Below, piece after piece: positions 12,678-25,587 of a stretch of 25,587 bases of DNA. This stretch comes from a virus (Duplodnaviria; Caudoviricetes), in IMG/VR virus record IMGVR_UViG_3300017754_000922, positions 1 through 25,587 of that record; one strand, written 5' to 3'. The notes under the pieces were generated by a model that searched no databases, had not been told where the DNA came from, and worked only from the letters and a program-made list of their open reading frames with translations. A program made the translations under genes and the position numbers. Each line of letters opens with the position of its first letter. Within the stretch, counting starts at the first letter, position 1.

Positions 12678-13535
12678 ATGAAAATATTCAGACCCCAATT
12701 TACAATTAAATCAGAGTCAGAAAAAGAAAAGATACAAAGAGAGTTAGATGAGATAAGACAAAGGTTATCAAATAAGATTAACACTAAAATGCAAAAGTGG
12801 TTAGTGTTATCTGACATTCACAGACCTTTCCATAATCAAGTATTATGGTCTAAGGTTTTACAGTTAATTAAAGATTTAGGTAGTTCACTATATGGAGTTA
12901 TACTAGCAGGAGATTACCTTGACCTATACACACTTGGCAGTTATAATGCAGAATCACTTGCTAATTTGTCAGGCCTTACATTACAAGATGAATACATAGA
13001 TGGATTACAAGGTATTGATGAATTAAATTCAGTACTACATAAAGATGCTAAGAAGTTATTTTTATTTGGTAATCATGAGGATAGATATTTCAGACATGTA
13101 AAAGAAAAGGATAATGCCAAATATGGTGGAGCATTATTAAATCCTATTGAAGCATTGTACTTACATGAACATAACTGGGAAGTTAAAACAGATTGGCAAT
13201 CAGATTACTTTACTCTTGGTAAACATTTAGATGTAATACATGGAGTATATACTAGTATCAATGCAGCTAAAGCACATCTTGATAAAACTCAACATTCAGT
13301 AATGTTTGGCCACACACATAGAGTACAATGTTTTCATACTGGAAACAAAGCTGCTTATAATATTGGTGGATTATATGACATTAAGAGTAAAGGATTTTCA
13401 TATATGCCTAGGTTACAAAGAGAAACATGGGCAAATGGATTTGCTATTGTAAATATAAATGATGATGGAGAGTTTTATGTAGAACAGGTAAATGTATGGA
13501 AGGATAAATTTTTTGCAGATAGTAAAATGTATTAA
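12678..13535 (+). CDS. Calcineurin-like metallophosphoesterase
   Basis: Complete motif set: SDIH, GDYLD, GNHEDR, HG, GHTH. Confidence 0.9.
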   Translation: MKIFRPQFTIKSESEKEKIQRELDEIRQRLSNKINTKMQKWLVLSDIHRPFHNQVLWSKVLQLIKDLGSSLYGVILAGDYLDLYTLGSYNAESLANLSGLTLQDEYIDGLQGIDELNSVLHKDAKKLFLFGNHEDRYFRHVKEKDNAKYGGALLNPIEALYLHEHNWEVKTDWQSDYFTLGKHLDVIHGVYTSINAAKAHLDKTQHSVMFGHTHRVQCFHTGNKAAYNIGGLYDIKSKGFSYMPRLQRETWANGFAIVNINDDGEFYVEQVNVWKDKFFADSKMY

Positions 13536-13577
13536 AACTATTTGTTGATTAAGTGATAATTTTTTAAGATATTTGTT

Positions 13578-14321
13578 ATGAAAAAACAAATATCTTTTTA
13601 TATGAATAAAGTAGAAGTTCTTTTAATCAATATTGATGAAGCTTTTCATGATTTACAATTTGAACCTGAAAGGCATATATACAGAATAGGTAATAAAACA
13701 TTACCTTCAGTATCATCAATGATTAAAAAACATGTAGAACCTTTTGATGAAATATATTGGGCAAACAAAGTTGCCAATAAAAGAAAATGTTCTGTAGCAG
13801 AAGTATTAAAAGAGTGGGAAGATAAGAGAAATAAATCTACAACTAATGGGACTAGTGTTCACTTATTTGCAGAAAAATGGTGGGAAGATAAAACTAAAGT
13901 TGCTACAACAATACAAGAACAAGGGTTAGAAAAATTCCTAAAGTATATAACAGAAGAAAAAGGATATGAATTAGTTTGTACTGAAATACAAATGTATTCT
14001 AAAATATATAACTATGCAGGTACTTGTGATTTATTAGTTTATGATCCTATAAATGACAAAGTTATCTTATTAGATTACAAAACAAATTTTGAATTAGATA
14101 AACAATATAATTATTTATTAGAACCATTTAATTACTTACCTGATACTCAATCAAATAAATATCAAATACAGTTGAGTTATTATCAGATAATGTTAGAAGA
14201 AGCAGGAATAAAAGTAGATGAGAGATATGTAGTTTGGTTAAAACATAATGGTGAATATGAAATGAGGTATTGTAATGATTTTACTGATACACTTAAAAAC
14301 TATTTAAATGAAAATAATTGA
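13578..14321 (+). CDS. PD-(D/E)XK nuclease (RecB/Cas4/lambda-exonuclease-like superfamily)
   Basis: LPSVS, GTSVH, E...AGTCDLL...LLDYKT and YQIQLSYY motifs. The start could be ATG13602. Confidence 0.85.
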   Translation: MKKQISFYMNKVEVLLINIDEAFHDLQFEPERHIYRIGNKTLPSVSSMIKKHVEPFDEIYWANKVANKRKCSVAEVLKEWEDKRNKSTTNGTSVHLFAEKWWEDKTKVATTIQEQGLEKFLKYITEEKGYELVCTEIQMYSKIYNYAGTCDLLVYDPINDKVILLDYKTNFELDKQYNYLLEPFNYLPDTQSNKYQIQLSYYQIMLEEAGIKVDERYVVWLKHNGEYEMRYCNDFTDTLKNYLNENN

Positions 14322-15537: not shown

Positions 15538-16538
15538 GTAATGAAGTTACACCTTATGTATCTATAAATAGAATCTTAGGAAAACTAAGAAGAGATTATG
15601 GTACTGTACAAAATATAAGTGAATCTGATATGATAGAGTGGGCAGCAGAAGCTTTAGAAGCTATTGGTGCCATTACTCTTTATGAGGAAGCTGTTGCTTT
15701 TATTGAAGTTAGAAATCATCAGGCAGAGTTACCTAATGGACTTCATGCTATTGTTCAGATAGCTAGAAATACTTGTTGGGATGATGTTACAGGATGTGGT
15801 GCTTGCCCTTCAGATGTAATTCAGTCTGCTATTGAAAGTAATCAAACTACTTCTCAAAATACTACTCCTATTCCTGTTGCACTTAACTGTGATGGTGAAC
15901 CTATAGATGCTTATGAGTTAGCATACTATAGACCTTACTATGATATGAGAAATGAAACAGGATACTACTCTAACTCTTATCTTTTTAATAATTGTTTTTC
16001 AGTAGTGAGGTTATCTAATCATTCATTTTTTAATTCATTGGTATGTCAACATCCTGAAGGAGAAAAACTTTACTCTGAAGGATCAGGTATGTTTAATGAA
16101 TACACTATTATAAATGGAGATACTTTAAGATTAAGTTTTGAAAAAGGACAAGTAGCAGTATCTTATGTTAGAGTACAAGTTGATGATGATGGTTATCCTA
16201 TGATGCCTGACCATTATTCTTATACTACTGCAGTAACCAAGTATATTATATATAAATTAATGGAAAGAGAGTTTTATGCTAACAGAGAAGGGGCAGTATC
16301 TAAGTTACAAAAAGCAGAACAAGACTGGCATTGGTATTGTAAACAAGCTCGTAATAGAGCTATGATGCCTAAAGGTGTTGACCAATGGCAAAACATTCTT
16401 GAACAAAGACAATACTTGTTACCAAGAAATACAAGATACTATGGATACTTTGGTAAAATGTCAAGACCTGAATCTCGTAAATTTGATGATCCAGATTTCA
16501 GAAACTATTTCAGAGGTTATTATAACAGATATATATAA
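15534..16538 (+). CDS. Tail tubular / first ring protein (P22 gp4-like position)
   Basis: ATGA overlap. DMIEWAAEALE.I, AELP, G.V..SY...VDDDGYPM.PD and W..YC.QA motifs. Directly upstream of the tail stabilisation gene. Confidence 0.75.
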   Translation: MSNEVTPYVSINRILGKLRRDYGTVQNISESDMIEWAAEALEAIGAITLYEEAVAFIEVRNHQAELPNGLHAIVQIARNTCWDDVTGCGACPSDVIQSAIESNQTTSQNTTPIPVALNCDGEPIDAYELAYYRPYYDMRNETGYYSNSYLFNNCFSVVRLSNHSFFNSLVCQHPEGEKLYSEGSGMFNEYTIINGDTLRLSFEKGQVAVSYVRVQVDDDGYPMMPDHYSYTTAVTKYIIYKLMEREFYANREGAVSKLQKAEQDWHWYCKQARNRAMMPKGVDQWQNILEQRQYLLPRNTRYYGYFGKMSRPESRKFDDPDFRNYFRGYYNRYI

Positions 16539-19500
16539 TGGATAAAAATACAAATAGACCACATAAGGGTATGCTACAGGATAACAATCCTGTAGATCAA
16601 CCCAAAGAAAGTTATAGATATGCACTTAATGCTGTCAATGAAACTAATGATGGTAATAGAACTCTTTTATCTAATGAAAAGAGTAATGAGTTATGCTGGT
16701 CATTACCTGCTGGGTATTTACCTATTGGTCAAGTATATACTGTAAATAATGAAGTAGTAATATTTTCTACTGATGGTATTGATAGTGAAATAGGTATAGT
16801 TAGAGATTGTATTTATGAATCTATAGTTAGTTCTTCATGTTTTAACTTTACTGTTCAATATCAGATAGATGCTATATACAGACTTAGAAATGGTTGTGAA
16901 AGAGTAATTTATTTTACTGATGGATATAATCCTGTAAGACAAATAAATTTAGACAAGTTAAGCTTTTATTATACTGATGCTTATAAAGCATGGTTAGAAA
17001 ATCCTGTAGGGCCTTGGGTTGGAGAAAAATATAATTGTGATTTATTTGCAATTATTCCTCCTTATCAGATACCATGTTTTTCTGAAGCTCAAGTTATAAA
17101 TGGAGGTAAATTATTATCAGGTTCATATAACTTTGCTATACAATATTTAGATTCTGATTTTAATCCTACTCCTTGGATTACTGTATCTAGACCTATAAAT
17201 ATTTATACTGATAGTATTAATATAGGATATTTAAACATTGATGGTTCATCAAATATAGAATCTGATGCTTTAGGTGGAACTGCTATTCCATCTAATAAAG
17301 CTATACAATTAACTCTTACTAATCTTGATGAAAACTTTACCTATTATAGAATAGCAGCAATTCAAGCTACATCATTTAATGGAACAGTTACTTCTGTTAT
17401 TGCATCTGATACAGTACCAATAAGTCAAATTACATTTATATTTGATGGTAACCCCTCATCTTATACTGAAATATCAATTAATGATATTTATCCTAGTAGA
17501 TTAAATCTTGAATATGCTCAACATATAGAACAATTAGAGAATAGATTAATCTTAGCTAACACTAAAGGTAAACAAGTAAACTTTTGTGAATTTCAAAAAT
17601 ATGCTTCTAAGATTGCATCCCATTATATTATTAAAGATGTAGAAGATACTAATGTAAGAGCTGAAGGTAATCCTAAAAATCCATTATCACCTTTTGAATG
17701 TGTAGGATTTATGGGTGGTGAAGTATATGCTTTTGGTATAGTATATGTTTTTAAAGATGGATTTGAATCTCCTGCATATCATATTCCTGGACCACCAGTA
17801 AATAAAAGATGGGATTGGAATACTAATACTTGTAAAGATGTAGTTACTGATTATGGTAAATTACGTGATAATAGAGATATTACTTCTTGGAATACAAATA
17901 TAGAACATATTGTTCCTCAATCATTAGCAGGATTATATGATGCAGGAGCAATTTTACCTTATGTACAAAGATGGAGAGTAAATGAAACTGCTATTGCAAC
18001 AAGTCCTGGTGTTGAAGGACATATGGCATTTTGGGAATGTTCTACTTCTATGTATGATAAAAGAGAATCTTGTTTAGATGAAGATTATTGGGGAGTAGAT
18101 TTTTGTGGTGACCCATTAGAAGGTACTAAAGTTAGACATCATAGATTTCCATCAAGAACTTTAGAACCTCATGTAAATAATAATGGAGGTATTAATACTT
18201 TTTATAATATTGTAGCTAAGGTTAAACTTATAAGTGGACCATGGCCAGATCCAGGAAATCCTGTAGATTTATATACTGATTATCTTTTAAATGCAATACC
18301 TCAAACTACTGTAATATCTCCTATTAATGAATCAGATTTAGATCCTACTACTTTAGAATATACATTTACTGTAGCAACAGAGCTTGCAAATGCTCCTATG
18401 TTAATAACTAATATTGTTTGTAATCTTGATCCAGCAAGTCTTTGTGTTGCATATTCTTCTAATTTTGAAGTAACATATACAGTAGAGTTTGCATATCAAA
18501 CTTCTTATAATTATTCATCATTAAAATTATTAGGTGTACAATTTGACAATATAGAGTACCCTCATCCTGATATTGTAGGACATTACTTTGTTAGAGCTGA
18601 AAGAGATGAATTTAATAGAACAATATTAGATTCAGCTATAGGAAATAAAATGAGAGAAGTAAATACTGATTCTTTTAACTATATTACTTTCTCTTATTTT
18701 ACTCAAGAAAATACTGATGGGTCATATCATAATTATTTTTTTGCTCCTAAGTTTATGTATCAAAGACAAGACTTATCTCCTCAATATATAAAGTCAGAAT
18801 TACTATTTGATGCTAATAGTGTAAGTTTAGGTGATATAATAGAAGATGCTGTTGGTAACTGGGTAGTAGATGTTGATACTGTAGTAGAATACAGAATCCA
18901 AAACTATAGTGGAACTAGTAATGCAGCATGTGGAAATAATCATACTCCTTTAGCTTTTATGACTTTAAATGGAGCATCTTATGATGATAATTTTACTCCA
19001 GGTAGAAGAGTTTATAATAACTCATTAGTTAATAATATTCAAGTAGGTAGATTAGGTAGCCAATTACCAATTAATCCTAGTGAACAACGTGATTTACCTT
19101 ATGTTACTTATAGAGTAGAAAGAGATGTACATTGTAATCTTGATGGTATTAAGTATTACAAGATGCATAATTGTATGATTGAAAATGAAGTTAGTCCAAG
19201 ATTATTTGCAGGAGATGTATATATAACTCAATTAAAATTATCTAATACTTTATTTAGAGAATTTTTTGATGGCCCTGAAGATATGATAGTTAATGCTTTA
19301 GGATTATTTGCAATAGCAGTTTCTACAATATTAACCTTAGTAACTTTTGGTGCTGCTACTCCATTGTTAATTGGTGTAGTAGTATTGTATAGTATAGGTA
19401 TTACTGCAATAGGTATTACTGCATTAGTACAAGCAATGAAAGAATCTGATTTAGATCAAACAGTTACAGATCCTGAATTAGATGGAATAGATACTTATTA

Positions 19501-21271
19501 TAGGTCTTTTGTAGCTTATGCTAATGAATATATCAGAGGTGTATATGTAGAATCTGAAATCAATACAGCATTAAGACAAGAAACTAATAATGAGTGTGGA
19601 ACTTATTATAAAGAAAATAGACCTATAGTACAACATTATAGAGATAAGATAATGTTCTTTAATTATGATGAAGAAAAATGGGTTCCTAAAGCTGCACCAT
19701 GTCCTGAACCTTATCATTATAATGTAGACTTTTCTAGAATGGCTAAAGAGAAAATTTATTTTCCTTTACTTAGATCTTATGATTGTTGTTCAGAATGTTT
19801 AGAAAGTTTTCCAACAAGAGTATATTACTCTGAACAAAGTTTTTCAGAAGAAAATGGAGATAACTTTAGAGTTATCCTTTCTAACAACTATAGAGATATA
19901 GAAGCTGAACATGGTTCTATAACTGACTTAGTTAGAAAGAATAATAGTTTATTTATACTTACTGAAGAATGTTTATGGTACTTACCACAAAATGTACAAC
20001 AATCAGTAGTTAGTGATATAGTTACCTTTTTGGGAACTGGTAGTTATTTCTCTATACCTCCTAGAAAGGTAGTAGATTCTGATATGGGTAGTGCAGGTAC
20101 TAGACATAAATGGTCAGTAGTTAAAACTCCAATAGGTATAGTATATATATCTGAAATAGAAAAAGCAGTTTATATTACAGCAGGAGAAGGATTGCAAAAG
20201 ATTTCTAATCAAGGAATGTATAATTGGTTTTTTGAAAATGTAGAATCTTATTTAGGTAATCAGTTTTTACAATTAACTGGTCAAGAGTTTCCATATTTGA
20301 ATAACCCTAATAATCCTAATGCTGTAGGTATCCATAGTGTATATGACCCTAGACATCAAAGAATACTTATAACTAAAAGAGATTATAAACTTTTACCTCC
20401 TTATTCTGAAAGTATTACAATTGTAACTGATCCATTATTTACAGGATATGTAGAAGATCAAATATATTACATTGAGTTTTTAGAATTGTTTGCTGTTGGA
20501 GATGATGAAGGTGGAGCAACTCCTATATTCTTTACTAATGAAGAATACTTTGAGAACAAATCATTTACAATAAGTTTTTCACTATTGTCAAATACATGGG
20601 TATCATTCCATTCTTATTTACCATTATTTTATTATAGTGACCAACATAATTTTTATTCTTCTGTAGGTACTACTAACTTATATAAACATAATATAATAGG
20701 TAACCATCAAAAGTTTTATGGTGTAGATTATCCATATATTCTTGAAACAGTATCTGTATCTAATCCATTAACTACAAGACTATGGGAAGATATTACATTA
20801 GAAACTTATGCAAGAACTTGGGATGCTATCAATAAAGATTACTATGATGTAAGATGGAAAACATTTAATTATGTTACACTATATAATAGTAGACAAACTA
20901 CAGGTGAATTAGAGATGATTGTTAAAGATACTCAAGCTGATCCTGAAGATTATTATAAGCAACAAACTACTAACTCTAATACATCTATTGTAGTAGATAG
21001 AAAAGAAAGAGATTGGCATGTAAATGATTTTAGAGATATGAGAATTGATTATACAATTCCTATGTTTACTAAAGACTGGACTGCTTTAGCACCTGAGTAT
21101 CCTATTGATAAAGTAATTAATCCTGCAGTTATTGACATAGATAAAGACTGGTCTGATCAAGAAAGTTTCAGAGATAAATATTTAATTATAAGACTCAGAT
21201 TTGCTAACTTTGAAGAAGTAGAATTGACTACAAACTTTGTTATTGAAACTGAACAACAATCTTTCAGATAA
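16538..21271 (+). CDS. Tail stabilisation / muzzle protein (P22 gp10-like)
   Basis: 1577 aa, TAATG overlaps at both ends. KGM..D...QP..SY.YALNAV, IYFTDG.NP.R.IN, GEVY.FGI, RHH.FP and TISFS....W.SFHSY.P motifs typical of crAss-like muzzle proteins. Confidence 0.85.
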   Translation: MDKNTNRPHKGMLQDNNPVDQPKESYRYALNAVNETNDGNRTLLSNEKSNELCWSLPAGYLPIGQVYTVNNEVVIFSTDGIDSEIGIVRDCIYESIVSSSCFNFTVQYQIDAIYRLRNGCERVIYFTDGYNPVRQINLDKLSFYYTDAYKAWLENPVGPWVGEKYNCDLFAIIPPYQIPCFSEAQVINGGKLLSGSYNFAIQYLDSDFNPTPWITVSRPINIYTDSINIGYLNIDGSSNIESDALGGTAIPSNKAIQLTLTNLDENFTYYRIAAIQATSFNGTVTSVIASDTVPISQITFIFDGNPSSYTEISINDIYPSRLNLEYAQHIEQLENRLILANTKGKQVNFCEFQKYASKIASHYIIKDVEDTNVRAEGNPKNPLSPFECVGFMGGEVYAFGIVYVFKDGFESPAYHIPGPPVNKRWDWNTNTCKDVVTDYGKLRDNRDITSWNTNIEHIVPQSLAGLYDAGAILPYVQRWRVNETAIATSPGVEGHMAFWECSTSMYDKRESCLDEDYWGVDFCGDPLEGTKVRHHRFPSRTLEPHVNNNGGINTFYNIVAKVKLISGPWPDPGNPVDLYTDYLLNAIPQTTVISPINESDLDPTTLEYTFTVATELANAPMLITNIVCNLDPASLCVAYSSNFEVTYTVEFAYQTSYNYSSLKLLGVQFDNIEYPHPDIVGHYFVRAERDEFNRTILDSAIGNKMREVNTDSFNYITFSYFTQENTDGSYHNYFFAPKFMYQRQDLSPQYIKSELLFDANSVSLGDIIEDAVGNWVVDVDTVVEYRIQNYSGTSNAACGNNHTPLAFMTLNGASYDDNFTPGRRVYNNSLVNNIQVGRLGSQLPINPSEQRDLPYVTYRVERDVHCNLDGIKYYKMHNCMIENEVSPRLFAGDVYITQLKLSNTLFREFFDGPEDMIVNALGLFAIAVSTILTLVTFGAATPLLIGVVVLYSIGITAIGITALVQAMKESDLDQTVTDPELDGIDTYYRSFVAYANEYIRGVYVESEINTALRQETNNECGTYYKENRPIVQHYRDKIMFFNYDEEKWVPKAAPCPEPYHYNVDFSRMAKEKIYFPLLRSYDCCSECLESFPTRVYYSEQSFSEENGDNFRVILSNNYRDIEAEHGSITDLVRKNNSLFILTEECLWYLPQNVQQSVVSDIVTFLGTGSYFSIPPRKVVDSDMGSAGTRHKWSVVKTPIGIVYISEIEKAVYITAGEGLQKISNQGMYNWFFENVESYLGNQFLQLTGQEFPYLNNPNNPNAVGIHSVYDPRHQRILITKRDYKLLPPYSESITIVTDPLFTGYVEDQIYYIEFLELFAVGDDEGGATPIFFTNEEYFENKSFTISFSLLSNTWVSFHSYLPLFYYSDQHNFYSSVGTTNLYKHNIIGNHQKFYGVDYPYILETVSVSNPLTTRLWEDITLETYARTWDAINKDYYDVRWKTFNYVTLYNSRQTTGELEMIVKDTQADPEDYYKQQTTNSNTSIVVDRKERDWHVNDFRDMRIDYTIPMFTKDWTALAPEYPIDKVINPAVIDIDKDWSDQESFRDKYLIIRLRFANFEEVELTTNFVIETEQQSFR
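19394..19423 (+). repeat. Perfect 15-bp tandem duplication (IGITA-IGITA)
   Basis: ATAGGTATTACTGCA at 19394-19408 and 19409-19423, inside the hydrophobic segment of the muzzle protein. Confidence 0.9.
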
Positions 21272-24200
21272 TGGCTAAAAGAAAAAAATATAAAAATGGT
21301 GGAAATGTAAATCCAACAGATCCATCAATAGATTTTTTAAAACAAATGATAAATAGTCCTTTGTTTAATGAAAGATATGCTAGTATGGTAAATAAACCTA
21401 TGAGTGATATAGGTGATGAAGCAAGTAAGTATAGAGAATTTTTAAACAATAATTTAAATACAGTTAAGATTGGAGATTGGGAAAATTCTAACAAAGGAAA
21501 TTGGAATGGATTATATAATCTTCAATATAGTGATGATGAAAAAAATACATTAAATAATAAGTTACAATCTTATCAAAAACAAAAACAAGATTTTATATCT
21601 AATCATGGATTAAGTAATATAAATACTAATTCATATCTTAAAGATGAACTTAAAGGTTTTTCTCAAAAAATAAATAATTATAAAAATAAATTAGATAATC
21701 CTCATACTGTATTTATAAATCAAAATCAAGATTTACCAGCAACAAAAATACATGAGTTATCACATGCATCTACAATAGGTCATAAAGGATTAAACACTAA
21801 TAATAAGTTTAATATAGATCTTAATAATATACCTGATAATTTTAAACAAATATATTCTGATAAAGAATATTATGAAAATCCTACAGAAATAAAAGCAAGA
21901 GTAGATGCTGTTAGGAAATGGATGATGGATAATAAACTATATGATCCAGTTAATGAAAAATTTGAAAAAAAACATTATGATGAGTTAAAAAAATATTCGC
22001 CTTCTTCTCCTATTTATGATACAAATAAAGAGAATGGATTTCAATCACAAATGCAAGATTTAATGATTCCATTTAAAGAAGAAGATGTAATTAAAATGTT
22101 TAATTCTTTTGTTAAAAATGATAATCTTTCTTCAGTTCAAACTGCAGCTTTAGGCGGTAAAATAACTAACAATATGAAAAAGAAAAAAAATAAAAAATTA
22201 TCTATAGATAATGGATTACCTAAATATCTTCCTGGTGGATTTATTAATGCATTACCAGTTATTGGTGCTTCTGTAAATGAAGTAAATAAATTATTTGGAT
22301 TACCTGTATCTAATATGTCATCAGATAATAATAGTAGTGCAAATGGATTAAGTAAAGCTGCAGAAGGATTAGCAGAAGCTGCTAAAGGATCAAGTACAGC
22401 TAATGCTTCAGGTGCTGGAGGAGGATTAGGTTCTTTAGGTAAAGGAGCAGGTAAAGGATTACAATCTTTAGGAAGTAAAGCTGCAGGTTCATTACAAGGA
22501 AATTTAGGTAACTCAAGTAATTTAGCATCAGGGATGGGAGCTTTATCTCCATTAATTGGAGCAACTGGAAAAGCAGTTTCTGAAATGGTTAATTCATTTA
22601 TTGAACCTGAAGAAAATTATAGAACTACACTTAGAAATATAGGAGCTCATTATGCTAATGGTGGTAAGATAAATATTAAACCATCTAAGAGAGGTACATT
22701 TACTGCAGCTGCAACAAAGAGAGGTAAAGGTGTTCAAGAGTTTGCTAGACAAGTATTAGCTAATAAAGATAACTATTCTCCTGCTATGGTTAAAAAAGCT
22801 AACTTTGCTAGAAATGCAGCTAAGTGGAAAAAAGCTATGGGAGGTTTAGTAGAACCTGAGATATTTGAAATGGGTGGTAATATTACTCCTGTAAATATGG
22901 GAAATTCTACATCTCTTGATTCTGATATGATGGAAGGTAAAGTTCCTTCTAAAAAAGAATTGATGAATTATTTAAGAAATTTTTCTGATGAATCTCTTCA
23001 GCAAAGATTAAATAAATCTTTACAAAAACAAAACTTTAATAGTAACTTAAAAGGTACATCATCTGGTAAAAACAATATTGGATTAAATTATAAAGCAGGT
23101 CCTTTTACTCAATCAACAAGTATAACTAATGATCGTAGATTAGCTCCTATTGATAAGTTTACATTTGCTAGTGATAACCCTACTAATTCACAATTAAATC
23201 TCAATACAAGGTTAGGATATAAAGATAAGTATGGATTTAAAGGTAGTGCAGATTATTCAAATTCTACAGCTAAAGATAACCCTAATGCAAAATTTAATCT
23301 TGGATTTAATAAATATGGATTTACTGGTGATTATAATTATAATTATGATAGAGATAATCCCAATTTTAATTTTGGTGGAGGCTATTCAGGTAATGGAGTT
23401 GATGCAAATTTTAAAGCATCAAAAAGTAAAGATACTCCTTATGATTATGATACTAATATTAATTATGATAATAATGGTATAACAGGAAACTTTGGATTTA
23501 CTGGTAACAAAACTAATCCTAATTATAACTTTGGATTAGGTTATACCAATAATGGATTTAGTGGTAATTTTGCAGCATCAAAAAGTAATGAAGATCCTTT
23601 TAATTATGAAGCTAGTTTAGGTTATGATAATAATGGTGTAACTACTGGAGTTAAATTTACTGGAAACAAACTTGATCCTAAGTATAATTATAATTTTAAT
23701 TACTCTCCAGAAAAAGGAGGATTTGGTACTAATACAAATATTGATTTTAGTAAAGATAATATTGATGCTGAATTAGGACTTAATTATAAAAATAAAAAAT
23801 TTAATACTGGTGTAAATTATAAAACATCTGTTAATCCTGAAGAAGAAACTCAAACAAATAGTTTAGATGCTAGACTTGGGTATAGAGGTAAAAACTTTAA
23901 TGCTGGGGTTGATTATGAAAGACAATTTGCAACAGAAGGAAATCCTGCTACAAATAAAGTAGGTGTTAATGTTGGATATAATAAAAATGGTTTTGGTGTT
24001 AATGCTGGAGTTAATTATAAAACTTTAAGTGAAGCTCAAAAAGAAATGGATAAAGCATCACCATTTGAAGTTAAAGCAGGAGTAACATATACTCCTAAAC
24101 GTAAGGCAAAAGAAAAAACTACACCTTGGAAATTGCCTTCAGAATTAATTAAAAAAGTTGAGCCTATGAAACCATTAATAAATGAAAAACAATTAAGTAA

Positions 24201-25587
24201 AAAACAAAAAGCTATTAATGACCTTAATAAAGCAATTGCTTTATCTAAAGAATTAAAACTTAAAGCATATGGTGGATACATGGATGCATTTGATGCTATG
24301 GCATTAGGTGGGGTAACTAATAATAATCCTACATTTCCACCACTAAGAGCAACTGCATCTGATAGCTTAGATGTATATAAATCAGCAATTGATTTTGAAA
24401 ATAAAATGAAAGGTTTAGGTTATGAAAAACAAGGTACCTTTGATATGTTTGATGCTTATAATCAATTTATAGATACTGATGAATTTGGATTAACTAATGG
24501 AAAACTTAAAGTTAAATCACCTGATAGAAAATTAGAACAAGTTAAATTAACAGGAACTGCAGCAGCTAAAAATCCTAACAAACAAGTTAAAGATGTAGGA
24601 GATTTTTATTCTAATAAAAAAGTTAATGATTATAAGTATAATGTAGCTGAGTTACTTTCTCCTTTAGGTTATAATACAGATCTTCCTTATCAAGTATTAG
24701 ATGAAAGAATAGCTCCTCAAGGAGCTGCAAAATATACTTTAAGTAATCCACTTAACCCTAAAGCTGAAGATGCTGCAATAATGTTAAACTATGACCCAAT
24801 TGCAGTTAAACCATATGCAATGAGAACTCCTGCTGAACAAGCTGAGTATGAAAAAAGATATGGTAAACTTCAACCTGCTGTTAATGTTTCACCAACAAGT
24901 AATGTAGTACCTGTATCTGACCTTAGACCTGGTGCTAAAAAATATTTTGAAAATTATAGAAAAGAAGGTAACCCTGAATTAGCAGATAGAGATGAAGCTT
25001 TATATAGAAAAATTTTAAGATCAGGAGTTGTAACTGGTGAAGAAGCTGTTAACTTAGGAGTTCCTGGAGTTCTTCAAAGATTTGGATCTCAAAAAGCTAT
25101 GGGTGGAATGATAGATCCTTTAATGGCATTTGGTGGTATGATAGACCCATCAATGTATATGGAACAAATGATGTATGGTTCTTATGCTGGTGGTGGACAA
25201 GTTCCTCAAAACATTCCTGTTGAAGTAGAAGGTGAAGAAATGTATGAATTACCTAATGGACAAACAGGAGAGTTTCAAGGTCCTAAACATGAAAATGGAG
25301 GAATACCTATTGCTCTTCCTGAAGGTACTAAAATCTATTCTGACAGATTAAAAGTAGATGGTAAAACTATGGCTCAAAGAAAAGAAAAAAGAGATAACAA
25401 TATTAAGAAGTTAGAAAAGCTTCTTACTAAAAATCCTAGTGATAGGTTTATAAAAGAAGCAATTAAAAGACAACAAGAAACTGCATCTTTAGAAGAGCAA
25501 GGTGATATGCAAATGCAAGAGCAAGCTAATCAACAACAAGCTATGCAAGAGCAGATGATGGAAGAAATGTTAATGGGTGCTGCACAA
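21271..25587 (+). CDS. Giant multidomain cargo/ejection protein, at least 1439 aa, 3'-truncated by the window (missing from the ORF track)
   Basis: ATG21271 overlaps the muzzle TAA. Hand translation (MAKRKKYKNGGNVNP...EEMLMGAAQ) finds no stop to the window end. Contains HELSH, a beta-barrel-like region and an EVEGEE/HENGG domain. Position after the muzzle gene equals that of crAss cargo protein genes. Confidence 0.88.
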   Translation, partial: MAKRKKYKNGGNVNPTDPSIDFLKQMINSPLFNERYASMVNKPMSDIGDEASKYREFLNNNLNTVKIGDWENSNKGNWNGLYNLQYSDDEKNTLNNKLQSYQKQKQDFISNHGLSNINTNSYLKDELKGFSQKINNYKNKLDNPHTVFINQNQDLPATKIHELSHASTIGHKGLNTNNKFNIDLNNIPDNFKQIYSDKEYYENPTEIKARVDAVRKWMMDNKLYDPVNEKFEKKHYDELKKYSPSSPIYDTNKENGFQSQMQDLMIPFKEEDVIKMFNSFVKNDNLSSVQTAALGGKITNNMKKKKNKKLSIDNGLPKYLPGGFINALPVIGASVNEVNKLFGLPVSNMSSDNNSSANGLSKAAEGLAEAAKGSSTANASGAGGGLGSLGKGAGKGLQSLGSKAAGSLQGNLGNSSNLASGMGALSPLIGATGKAVSEMVNSFIEPEENYRTTLRNIGAHYANGGKINIKPSKRGTFTAAATKRGKGVQEFARQVLANKDNYSPAMVKKANFARNAAKWKKAMGGLVEPEIFEMGGNITPVNMGNSTSLDSDMMEGKVPSKKELMNYLRNFSDESLQQRLNKSLQKQNFNSNLKGTSSGKNNIGLNYKAGPFTQSTSITNDRRLAPIDKFTFASDNPTNSQLNLNTRLGYKDKYGFKGSADYSNSTAKDNPNAKFNLGFNKYGFTGDYNYNYDRDNPNFNFGGGYSGNGVDANFKASKSKDTPYDYDTNINYDNNGITGNFGFTGNKTNPNYNFGLGYTNNGFSGNFAASKSNEDPFNYEASLGYDNNGVTTGVKFTGNKLDPKYNYNFNYSPEKGGFGTNTNIDFSKDNIDAELGLNYKNKKFNTGVNYKTSVNPEEETQTNSLDARLGYRGKNFNAGVDYERQFATEGNPATNKVGVNVGYNKNGFGVNAGVNYKTLSEAQKEMDKASPFEVKAGVTYTPKRKAKEKTTPWKLPSELIKKVEPMKPLINEKQLSKKQKAINDLNKAIALSKELKLKAYGGYMDAFDAMALGGVTNNNPTFPPLRATASDSLDVYKSAIDFENKMKGLGYEKQGTFDMFDAYNQFIDTDEFGLTNGKLKVKSPDRKLEQVKLTGTAAAKNPNKQVKDVGDFYSNKKVNDYKYNVAELLSPLGYNTDLPYQVLDERIAPQGAAKYTLSNPLNPKAEDAAIMLNYDPIAVKPYAMRTPAEQAEYEKRYGKLQPAVNVSPTSNVVPVSDLRPGAKKYFENYRKEGNPELADRDEALYRKILRSGVVTGEEAVNLGVPGVLQRFGSQKAMGGMIDPLMAFGGMIDPSMYMEQMMYGSYAGGGQVPQNIPVEVEGEEMYELPNGQTGEFQGPKHENGGIPIALPEGTKIYSDRLKVDGKTMAQRKEKRDNNIKKLEKLLTKNPSDRFIKEAIKRQQETASLEEQGDMQMQEQANQQQAMQEQMMEEMLMGAAQ
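23356..23673 (+). repeat. Two diverged 159-bp (53-aa) tandem repeats in the beta-rich domain, plus the start of a third
   Basis: NPNFNFGGGY...ASKS...YDNNG...FTGNK at 23356 and NPNYNFGLGY...ASKS...YDNNG...FTGNK at 23515; DPKYNY at 23674. GCATCAAAAAGTAA occurs at 23416 and 23575. Confidence 0.85.
25093..25149 (+). repeat. 30-bp (10-aa) tandem duplication of a GG motif
   Basis: KAMGGMIDPL / MAFGGMIDP; GGTGGAATGATAGATCC at 25102 and GGTGGTATGATAGACCC at 25132. Confidence 0.8.

What the first reader, a model, noticed from the sequence alone, without database searches (positions are those of the whole stretch)
21271..25587. Cargo polyprotein segmented by recurring xxxGG motifs: candidate processed multi-effector injection system
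Seen: this ORF (absent from the track) has YKNGG (21289), AALGG (22144), YLPGG (22225), YANGG (22651), KAMGG (22831), FEMGG (22864), KAYGG (24262), MALGG (24298), KAMGG (25093), MAFGG (25123) and YAGGG (25183). They fall at the N-terminus and at the junctions between compositionally distinct modules, often in pairs or triplets. The modules are a zincin, a Gly/Ala-rich segment, a basic mini-domain, a beta-barrel, an unknown domain and an EVEGEE/HENGG domain. Known: the gene after the crAss muzzle encodes packaged cargo ejected through the tail, and similar (F/Y)AxGG motifs occur near the processed C-terminus of lambda gpH-type tape-measure proteins (from recall). Inference: the motif is a cleavage or packaging/threading signal that lets the phage add arbitrary effector cassettes to one virion-loaded precursor and release them on infection.
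Basis: partly seen in the sequence, partly recalled or inferred. Interest (0 to 1): 0.88.

Follow-up and report, generated by a model that had tools for sequence, protein, structure and literature searches.

The report
Gly-Gly seams in crAss cargo protein
The gene after the tail tip of this crAss-like phage encodes a chain of swappable protein modules joined at a short motif ending in two glycines, and this likely virion-carried protein is probably cut at those joints into separate pieces, which has not been shown directly.

Summary
All 11 motifs are present and non-random. The ORF (cut off by the contig end) is the likely orthologue of crAss001 cargo protein C1 (gp45): it follows the muzzle gene and shares the basic mini-domain and the portal-binding domain. 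All 59 homologues carry the motif. Homology breaks at 278 of 351 motif sites versus 179 of 466 other GG sites, and motif-cut segments recur in shuffled order. The motif marks joints only: one cassette has it at 48 of 49 internal ends and 0 of 11 C-terminal ends. Selection acts on protein, not DNA. My re-matching of published crAss001 virion gel peak lists finds the equal-size, equal-copy portal (11 of 23 peaks) but no full-length gp45 in any of 13 bands. That is indirect support for cutting. Against: no new termini seen, no protease assigned, C2 also missing from the gel, and one GG bond lies inside the cryo-EM model. Best reading: a processed cargo precursor (about 0.5); uncut hinge about 0.3. 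Ten paper searches found no description. This scan noted the motif before on four other genomes.

The parts
16538..21271 (+). Muzzle gene (context; fixes the C1 position)
   Evidence: PF25731 E 8.7e-52
21271..25587 (+). C1-like cargo ORF, 1439 aa, 3' end missing (contig end)
   Evidence: complete homologues go on into a conserved C-terminal family of 51 segments
21271..21303 (+). 11-aa basic leader ending in YKNGG
   Evidence: 21 of 60 family members have a leader ending in such a motif within 27 aa
21304..22158 (+). HExxH cassette (putative zincin-like metallopeptidase), family F12, ends AALGG
   Evidence: 6 of 60 proteins; HELSH and downstream Glu invariant in 9 sequences; model pLDDT 74.7; no fold match
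22159..22239 (+). 27-aa basic spacer ending YLPGG
   Evidence: weakest motif, no breakpoint
22240..22665 (+). Gly/Ala-rich segment ending YANGG
   Evidence: G+A 0.32, best hydropathy window 1.05 versus 1.73 in gp45
22666..22845 (+). 60-aa basic mini-domain (F4) ending KAMGG
   Evidence: phrog_20603; matches gp45 372-430, E 2e-6; 398 stretches in viral contigs
22846..22878 (+). 11-aa spacer ending FEMGG
22879..24276 (+). Beta-rich cassette (F14, barrel plausible) ending KAYGG
   Evidence: 5 of 60 proteins; all-beta low-confidence model
24277..24312 (+). 12-aa spacer ending MALGG
24313..25107 (+). Unknown cassette (F6) ending KAMGG
   Evidence: 11 of 60 proteins; no Pfam match
25108..25197 (+). 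Two spacers ending MAFGG and YAGGG
25198..25587 (+). [quoted passage not shown]
   Evidence: profile-profile probability 91.8, E 7e-7; phrog_15413; pairwise BLAST and PF25725 not significant

Best explanation
The ORF is a chain of interchangeable modules joined at a protein-level [YFMK]-A-x-G-G motif; it is likely the C1 cargo protein of a crAss-like phage, and the motif is probably a protease site at which the packaged precursor is cut into separate pieces. Shown: the motif, its position at module joints, module shuffling, homology to gp45. Inferred: the precursor would dock on the portal through the EVEGEE/HENGG domain, carrying every attached cassette into the particle; it would be cut at the joints during or after assembly; the pieces would be stored in head and tail and ejected separately. 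A new cassette is tolerated only between two motifs, which explains why recombinants join there. The cut may lie just before A-x-G-G rather than after GG. The enzyme is unassigned; the conserved HExxH domain of the polymerase-region cargo or a host peptidase are the likeliest candidates.
For: Breakpoints at 278 of 351 motif GG sites vs 179 of 466 equally masked other GG sites vs 23% random; 177 of 234 vs 138 of 317 after collapsing identical contexts. 32 reusable segment families; 53 architectures in 60 proteins, 13 family pairs seen in both orders. Junction-only rule for F4: downstream GG at 48 of 49 internal vs 0 of 11 C-terminal ends; upstream at 54 of 55 internal vs 0 of 5 N-terminal. Synonymous positions vary; window copies share a median 5 nt. 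phi14:2 gp70 and phi4:1 gp041 homology starts at the GG. crAss001 gp45 has 9 such sites; its two modelled pieces, 214-245 and 425-552 (PMC10172136), each fall almost wholly in one cassette. gp45 is at chance in all 13 virion gel bands, while the portal gives 11 of 23 peaks in the ~100 kDa band (null 1.3; gp45 2 of 23, null 1.6). Precedent: P22 gp7 starts Lys-Gly-Gly after a host peptidase cut (PMC8402733).
Against: No credible new-terminus peptide in the peak lists. gp46 (C2) is also undetected, and band 10 was nearly empty, so absence may be technical; no fragment band was found either. The modelled range 425-552 begins A425-F-G-G-W, so the bond after that GG is built as intact, and the authors propose a continuous chain. 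No GG-specific protease found in 59 of 76 ORFs of G002 and 17 of 80 of G001 scanned by Pfam, apart from a sub-threshold JAB. The motif is degenerate, and Fpv1 gp31 has no strict match. All experimental evidence is from a distant homologue, not this phage.
Confidence: 0.5

Rival explanations
1. The motif is an uncut hinge or unfolding/threading point: C1 stays one chain running from head to tail, and GG joints let independent modules pass the portal and tail one by one.
For: Authors' continuous-chain model and an intact G428-W429 in the modelled range; no new termini; junction-only placement fits equally.
Against: A hinge needs no conserved Y/F/M at -3, Ala at -2 and hydrophobic residue after GG; tandem motifs 7-20 aa apart and motifs next to short basic ends; no full-length gp45 in the gel.
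Confidence: 0.3
2. The motif is a repeated docking peptide bound by portal, scaffold or capsid during packaging.
For: AFGG starts the portal-bound modelled segment; phi4:1 gp041, a virion protein by MS annotation, has motifs but no match to the core-domain profile.
Against: Absent where a cassette forms the protein end; nearly absent from C2 and polymerase-region cargo that are also packaged.
Confidence: 0.1
3. The motif is only the imprint of a short DNA repeat used for recombination, with no protein role.
For: phi14:2/phi4:1 DNA homology (78%, 659 nt) starts just after the motif; first Gly codon is GGT in 66% vs 44% elsewhere.
Against: Second Gly and Ala codons follow background; Y/F/M use different codons; median shared DNA 5 nt; 156 of 156 DNA-pattern hits in the coding frame.
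Confidence: 0.04
4. The phage's own JAB peptidase cuts after GG and its ThiF/E1 enzyme activates the freed C-terminal Gly-Gly, as for ubiquitin-like proteins.
For: G001 and G002 carry adjacent JAB-like and ThiF genes, shared with crAss001, DAC15, cr128_1 and Fpv phages.
Against: PF14464 found in only 5 of 10 records; absent from phi14:2, p-crAssphage, crAss002, jaberico and phi4:1, all with motif-bearing cargo; present in Fpv1, whose C1 has no strict motif; the operon has its own candidate ubiquitin-like ORF (read by eye).
Confidence: 0.06

Closest known systems
crAss001 cargo protein C1, gp45 (Bayfield et al. 2023, PMC10172136; PDB 7qog_M; Pfam PF25725)
   Same: Position after the muzzle; basic mini-domain and portal-binding domain homologous; gp45 has the same GG motifs.
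   Different: At least 1439 vs 842 aa, with three large extra cassettes; below the PF25725 threshold; the paper treats C1 as one chain and its main text has no 'cleav' or 'protease'.
Polyvalent proteins of phages (Iyer et al. 2017, PMC5512222)
   Same: Unrelated domains in one virion-associated chain, zincin-like peptidases predicted to process them; ART-PolyVal PF18760 in homologue P0041.
   Different: No junction motif in the passages read ('glycine' 0, 'crass' 0 hits); here the HExxH cassette is optional (6 of 60), so it cannot be the general processing enzyme.
Adenovirus protease maturation at (M/I/L)XGG sites (PMC4246237)
   Same: GG-ending sites in virion core precursors, removal of short terminal peptides.
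   Different: The hydrophobic residue here sits one position further upstream (Ala at P4); no such protease found in relatives; cutting not shown.
P22 gp7 and T5 pb2 processing (PMC8402733; bioRxiv 2022.09.20.507954)
   Same: Ejected proteins cut during assembly; mature gp7 starts Lys-Gly-Gly; both pb2 pieces stay in the particle.
   Different: Single cuts, not a repeated motif delimiting shuffled cassettes.

Membership tests
crAss cargo protein C1 (gp45) | Gene directly after the muzzle gene | tested here: met
   PF25731 ORF ends at 21271 where this ORF starts; same order in crAss001
crAss cargo protein C1 (gp45) | Portal-binding domain homologous to gp45 425-552 | tested here: met
   hhalign probability 91.8, E 7e-7, 76 columns; pairwise BLAST not significant
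crAss cargo protein C1 (gp45) | Passes Pfam PF25725 crAss_CARG1 | tested here: not met
   No Pfam hit for P0001; gp45 and cr128_1 gp049 pass
crAss cargo protein C1 (gp45) | N-terminal Gly-rich transmembrane helix | tested here: inconclusive
   Gly/Ala-rich segment present, best hydropathy 1.05 vs 1.73 in gp45
crAss cargo protein C1 (gp45) | Present in the virion | not testable with these tools
   Homologues in crAss001, phi4:1 and phi14:2 are virion proteins by MS
Polyvalent proteins | Several unrelated enzymatic domains in one chain | tested here: inconclusive
   One HExxH cassette here; ART or lysozyme in 3 of 59 homologues
Polyvalent proteins | Encoded among virion genes | tested here: met
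Polyvalent proteins | Zincin-like MPTase domain | tested here: inconclusive
   Invariant HExxH and Glu on a predicted helix after a strand; no Pfam, PDB sequence or Foldseek match
Adenovirus-type GG maturation | (M/I/L)XGG consensus | tested here: not met
   Ala dominates P4, Y/M/F/K at P5 vs consensus
Adenovirus-type GG maturation | Virus-encoded cysteine protease for the site | tested here: inconclusive
   None among 76 ORFs of two relatives scanned by Pfam; window genome incomplete
Ubiquitin-like JAB/E1 processing | JAB gene wherever the GG substrate occurs | tested here: not met
   5 of 10 records
Lambda gpH-type tape-measure motif | Same motif near the processed C-terminus | not tested

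The most novel reading that the evidence does not exclude
Crassviruses and their relatives load the particle with one precursor, C1, that is cut at repeated Gly-Gly seams, a polyprotein-type cargo system not described for tailed phages. The head and tail segments of gp45 seen by cryo-EM would be separate chains, and any domain placed between two seams would be packaged and injected.
Probability: 0.45. Interest if true: 0.9.

Novelty: new variant of a known kind. Interest (0 to 1): 0.72.

Why it matters
C1 is a core virion protein of the most abundant gut phage group. A seam grammar explains how these phages swap lysozymes, ADP-ribosyltransferases and peptidase-like domains into the particle. 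If the seams are cut, the published picture of one C1 chain threaded through the portal needs revision, and an unknown maturation protease exists. The question is directly testable with cultured crAss001 and its existing MS and cryo-EM data. It would also give a rule for loading proteins into a gut-commensal phage particle.

Tried and rejected
Pfam, NCBIfam and PDB sequence searches of the ORF: no hit. Foldseek on the HExxH model: nothing at E <= 0.001; no fold search was obtained for the beta-rich model, so 'zincin fold' and 'barrel' stay open. Atlas hits were below 0.9 (LPD23 0.85, Porin_4 0.83): leads only. Stand-alone forms: none for the beta-rich cassette at 209-667 aa, none in viral contigs, only the window's own contig in metagenomes (L114); the one short HExxH protein P0062 matches the start of the 1821-aa ORF in L109 and is treated as truncated. 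JAB as universal enzyme rejected. The cargo's own HExxH cassette as general enzyme rejected (6 of 60). DNA-repeat-only origin largely rejected. Semi-tryptic search: of 27 predicted masses one (gp45 12-21) matched peaks in two high-mass bands and is taken as chance; the 373-374 site was set one residue off, and its flanking short peptides are below the measured range. The first breakpoint run lacked a masking control and was replaced. No complex prediction was sent. Extended Data Fig. 3 and Table 3 of PMC10172136 (gp45 peptide map) and the labels of Fig. 3a in PMC6235969 are not held as text and bear directly on cleavage.

Full report
Setting. The window is a whole 25,587-nt contig holding a crAss-like structural block: portal end, major capsid protein PF23898, rings PF25702 and PF24228, muzzle PF25731. 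The ORF at 21271-25587 starts where the muzzle gene stops and runs off the contig at 1439 aa.

Observation. It scores 7 sites here at 2 bits or more (one is the internal HENGG), against a shuffle mean of 0.2 (max 3 in 1000) and none in 6946 aa of the other window ORFs. Across homologues the GG context is K at -4, Y/M/K/F at -3, A at -2 and I/V two places after the GG.

Identity. The basic mini-domain matches crAss001 gp45 372-430 (E 2e-6). The EVEGEE/HENGG domain matches the gp45 425-552 family by profile comparison (probability 91.8, E 7e-7), but not pairwise and not at the PF25725 threshold. In PMC10172136 (passages, outline, two sections and one supplement search read) that segment is the portal-bound domain of cargo protein C1. 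So the ORF is likely a large, divergent C1. Virion location is inferred from homologues annotated by MS.

Modules move at the motif. A search with the core domain gave 59 homologues of 797-2039 aa among 344 candidates; all 59 have at least two motifs, median five. With every GG masked, homology breaks fell at 278 of 351 motif sites, 179 of 466 other GG sites and 23% of random sites; after collapsing identical contexts, 177 of 234 versus 138 of 317. These sites are not independent, so the size of the effect matters more than the p-value. Cutting at motifs gave 335 segments of 35 aa or more: 32 families and 50 singletons, 53 architectures in 60 proteins, and 13 family pairs seen in both orders. 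In this ORF 7 of 11 sites score as breakpoints. The HExxH, beta-rich and unknown cassettes occur in 6, 5 and 11 of 60 proteins. Homologues carry ADP-ribosyltransferase (P0022, P0041) or tail lysozyme (P0043) cassettes. C1 genes of crAss001, DAC15, cr128_1, jaberico, p-crAssphage, crAss002 and phi14:2 carry the motifs; DAC15 has the mini-domain twice, each copy between motifs. phi14:2 gp70 and phi4:1 gp041 share a stretch whose protein homology starts at the GG and whose DNA homology (78%, 659 nt) starts just after it. In two near-complete relatives only the C1 gene has more than one motif match. Fpv1 gp31 is a counter-case with no strict match.

What kind of signal. Of 398 matches to the mini-domain, the best 80 loci were held, giving 60 distinct flank pairs (one locus dropped for lack of an end match). 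A GG follows it at 48 of 49 internal ends and 0 of 11 C-terminal ends, and precedes it at 54 of 55 internal and 0 of 5 N-terminal starts. It is therefore a joint, not a tag that each cassette needs. In 183 motif contexts from 89 genes the second Gly and the Ala use background codons, the first Gly leans to GGT (66% vs 44%), and the window's copies share a median of 5 nt in register. Selection is mainly on the peptide.

Is it cut? No direct test was possible. PMC6235969 (passages, one section, source-data parts) deposits MALDI peak lists for 13 crAss001 virion gel bands. I matched them to 30 crAss001 proteins. Bands resolve to gp44/gp34, gp47/gp50, gp49/gp44, gp26/gp22, gp22/gp25, gp25, gp23, gp32, gp36 and gp29, in descending mass; band 10 had 7 peaks and is unassigned. 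gp45 is at chance in all 13 (z 0.7 or less). In band 5 (about 100 kDa by order), after removing 44 of 67 peaks as recalled trypsin and keratin masses, the portal (92 kDa, 12 copies) explains 11 of 23 (null 1.3) and gp45 (91 kDa, 12 copies) 2 of 23 (null 1.6). gp45 has 23 observable peptides, the portal 35. Yet gp45 peptides are found in whole virions. This fits a fragmented C1. Limits: gp46 is also unseen, no fragment band or credible new terminus was found, 25-kDa rings were not seen as separate bands, and gp45 could migrate oddly. From the structure paper, the modelled pieces 214-245 and 425-552 and the four named peptides sit within single cassettes, with one exception: 425-552 starts A425-F-G-G-W, so it includes the GG at 427-428 and 434-435. 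I saw only the stated range, not coordinates. Either those sites are protected, or the cut lies before A-x-G-G, as for P22 gp7, which starts Lys-Gly-Gly after a host peptidase cut (PMC8402733 passages), or there is no cut.

Enzyme. A Pfam scan of 59 of 76 ORFs of G002 and 17 of 80 of G001 found adjacent ThiF/E1 and sub-threshold JAB genes. JAB occurs in 5 of 10 records tested and is missing from five phages with motif-bearing cargo, so it is not the general enzyme. An HExxH occurs in a polymerase-region cargo protein of crAss001, jaberico, Fpv1, G002 and phi14:2, but not in the DAC15, phi4:1 and G001 ORFs checked, which were a partial set. bioRxiv 2020.03.07.982082 (passages) already suggests that this zincin processes fused polymerase cargo. 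It, or a host peptidase, is my leading candidate; this is inference.

Module identities. The HExxH cassette has invariant His, Glu, His and a later Glu on a predicted helix after a strand (pLDDT 74.7), but no fold match. The beta-rich cassette models as more than 20 strands at pLDDT 50. Both labels are plausible and unproven.

Known and new. The carrier is known (C1) and the idea of multi-enzyme injected proteins processed by zincins is known (PMC5512222 passages). GG-directed maturation is known in adenovirus with a different consensus (PMC4246237 passages), and single cuts in T5 pb2 (bioRxiv 2022.09.20.507954 passages). Ten searches (listings only unless named above) found no description of the seam motif; the library lacks most subscription papers. 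Four earlier notes of this scan describe the same motif on other genomes and leave cutting open; they are not independent support.

Verdict. Real, widespread and apparently undescribed; a new variant of a known kind. Cut precursor about 0.5, uncut hinge 0.3, docking peptide 0.1, JAB/E1 route 0.06, DNA relic 0.04. Interest 0.72.

Noticed in passing
L018:14690-18515 (G002) and L024:11915-15637 (G001): Four-gene ubiquitin-like operon in the replication block: candidate Ubl with a KTKSG stretch, a 407-419 aa ORF of possible E2 type (both read by eye), JAB/JAMM and ThiF/E1. JAB and ThiF relatives in 74 and 77 phage records, including crAss001, DAC15 and Fpv phages. Not found described in searches.
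   Followed up: partly
L115:28983-32141 (phi14:2 gp69, gp70) and L013:8768-13674 (phi4:1 gp041, gp040): The C1 region is spread over two genes, and the two phages share a recently exchanged HExxH cassette starting at the motif.
   Followed up: partly
L054, L077, L095, L097 (gene after the presumed portal): In another phage group the same basic mini-domain ends small 180-360 aa proteins placed between the presumed portal and capsid genes, preceded by one GG motif.
   Followed up: partly
L106 and L051: Runs of several neighbouring genes each carrying K-[YF]-x-x-GG-like motifs, some at the N-terminus.
   Followed up: no
crAss001 gp66 (outside the fetched loci): Listed as 'Protease/Transmembrane', HHpred 99%, in Supplementary Data 2 of PMC6235969; an untested candidate processing enzyme.
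   Followed up: no
PMC6235969 gel bands 1-2: Above 300 kDa the peaks match muzzle gp44 together with ring proteins gp34 and gp40, suggesting a tail complex that survives the gel.
   Followed up: no
window 12678-14321: A metallophosphoesterase and a PD-(D/E)XK nuclease gene lie inside the structural block before the ring genes.
   Followed up: no
L012 / W04:66233-66346 (Fpv1): The JAB match is in two pieces around an endonuclease gene in several Fpv phages, suggesting an intron.
   Followed up: no
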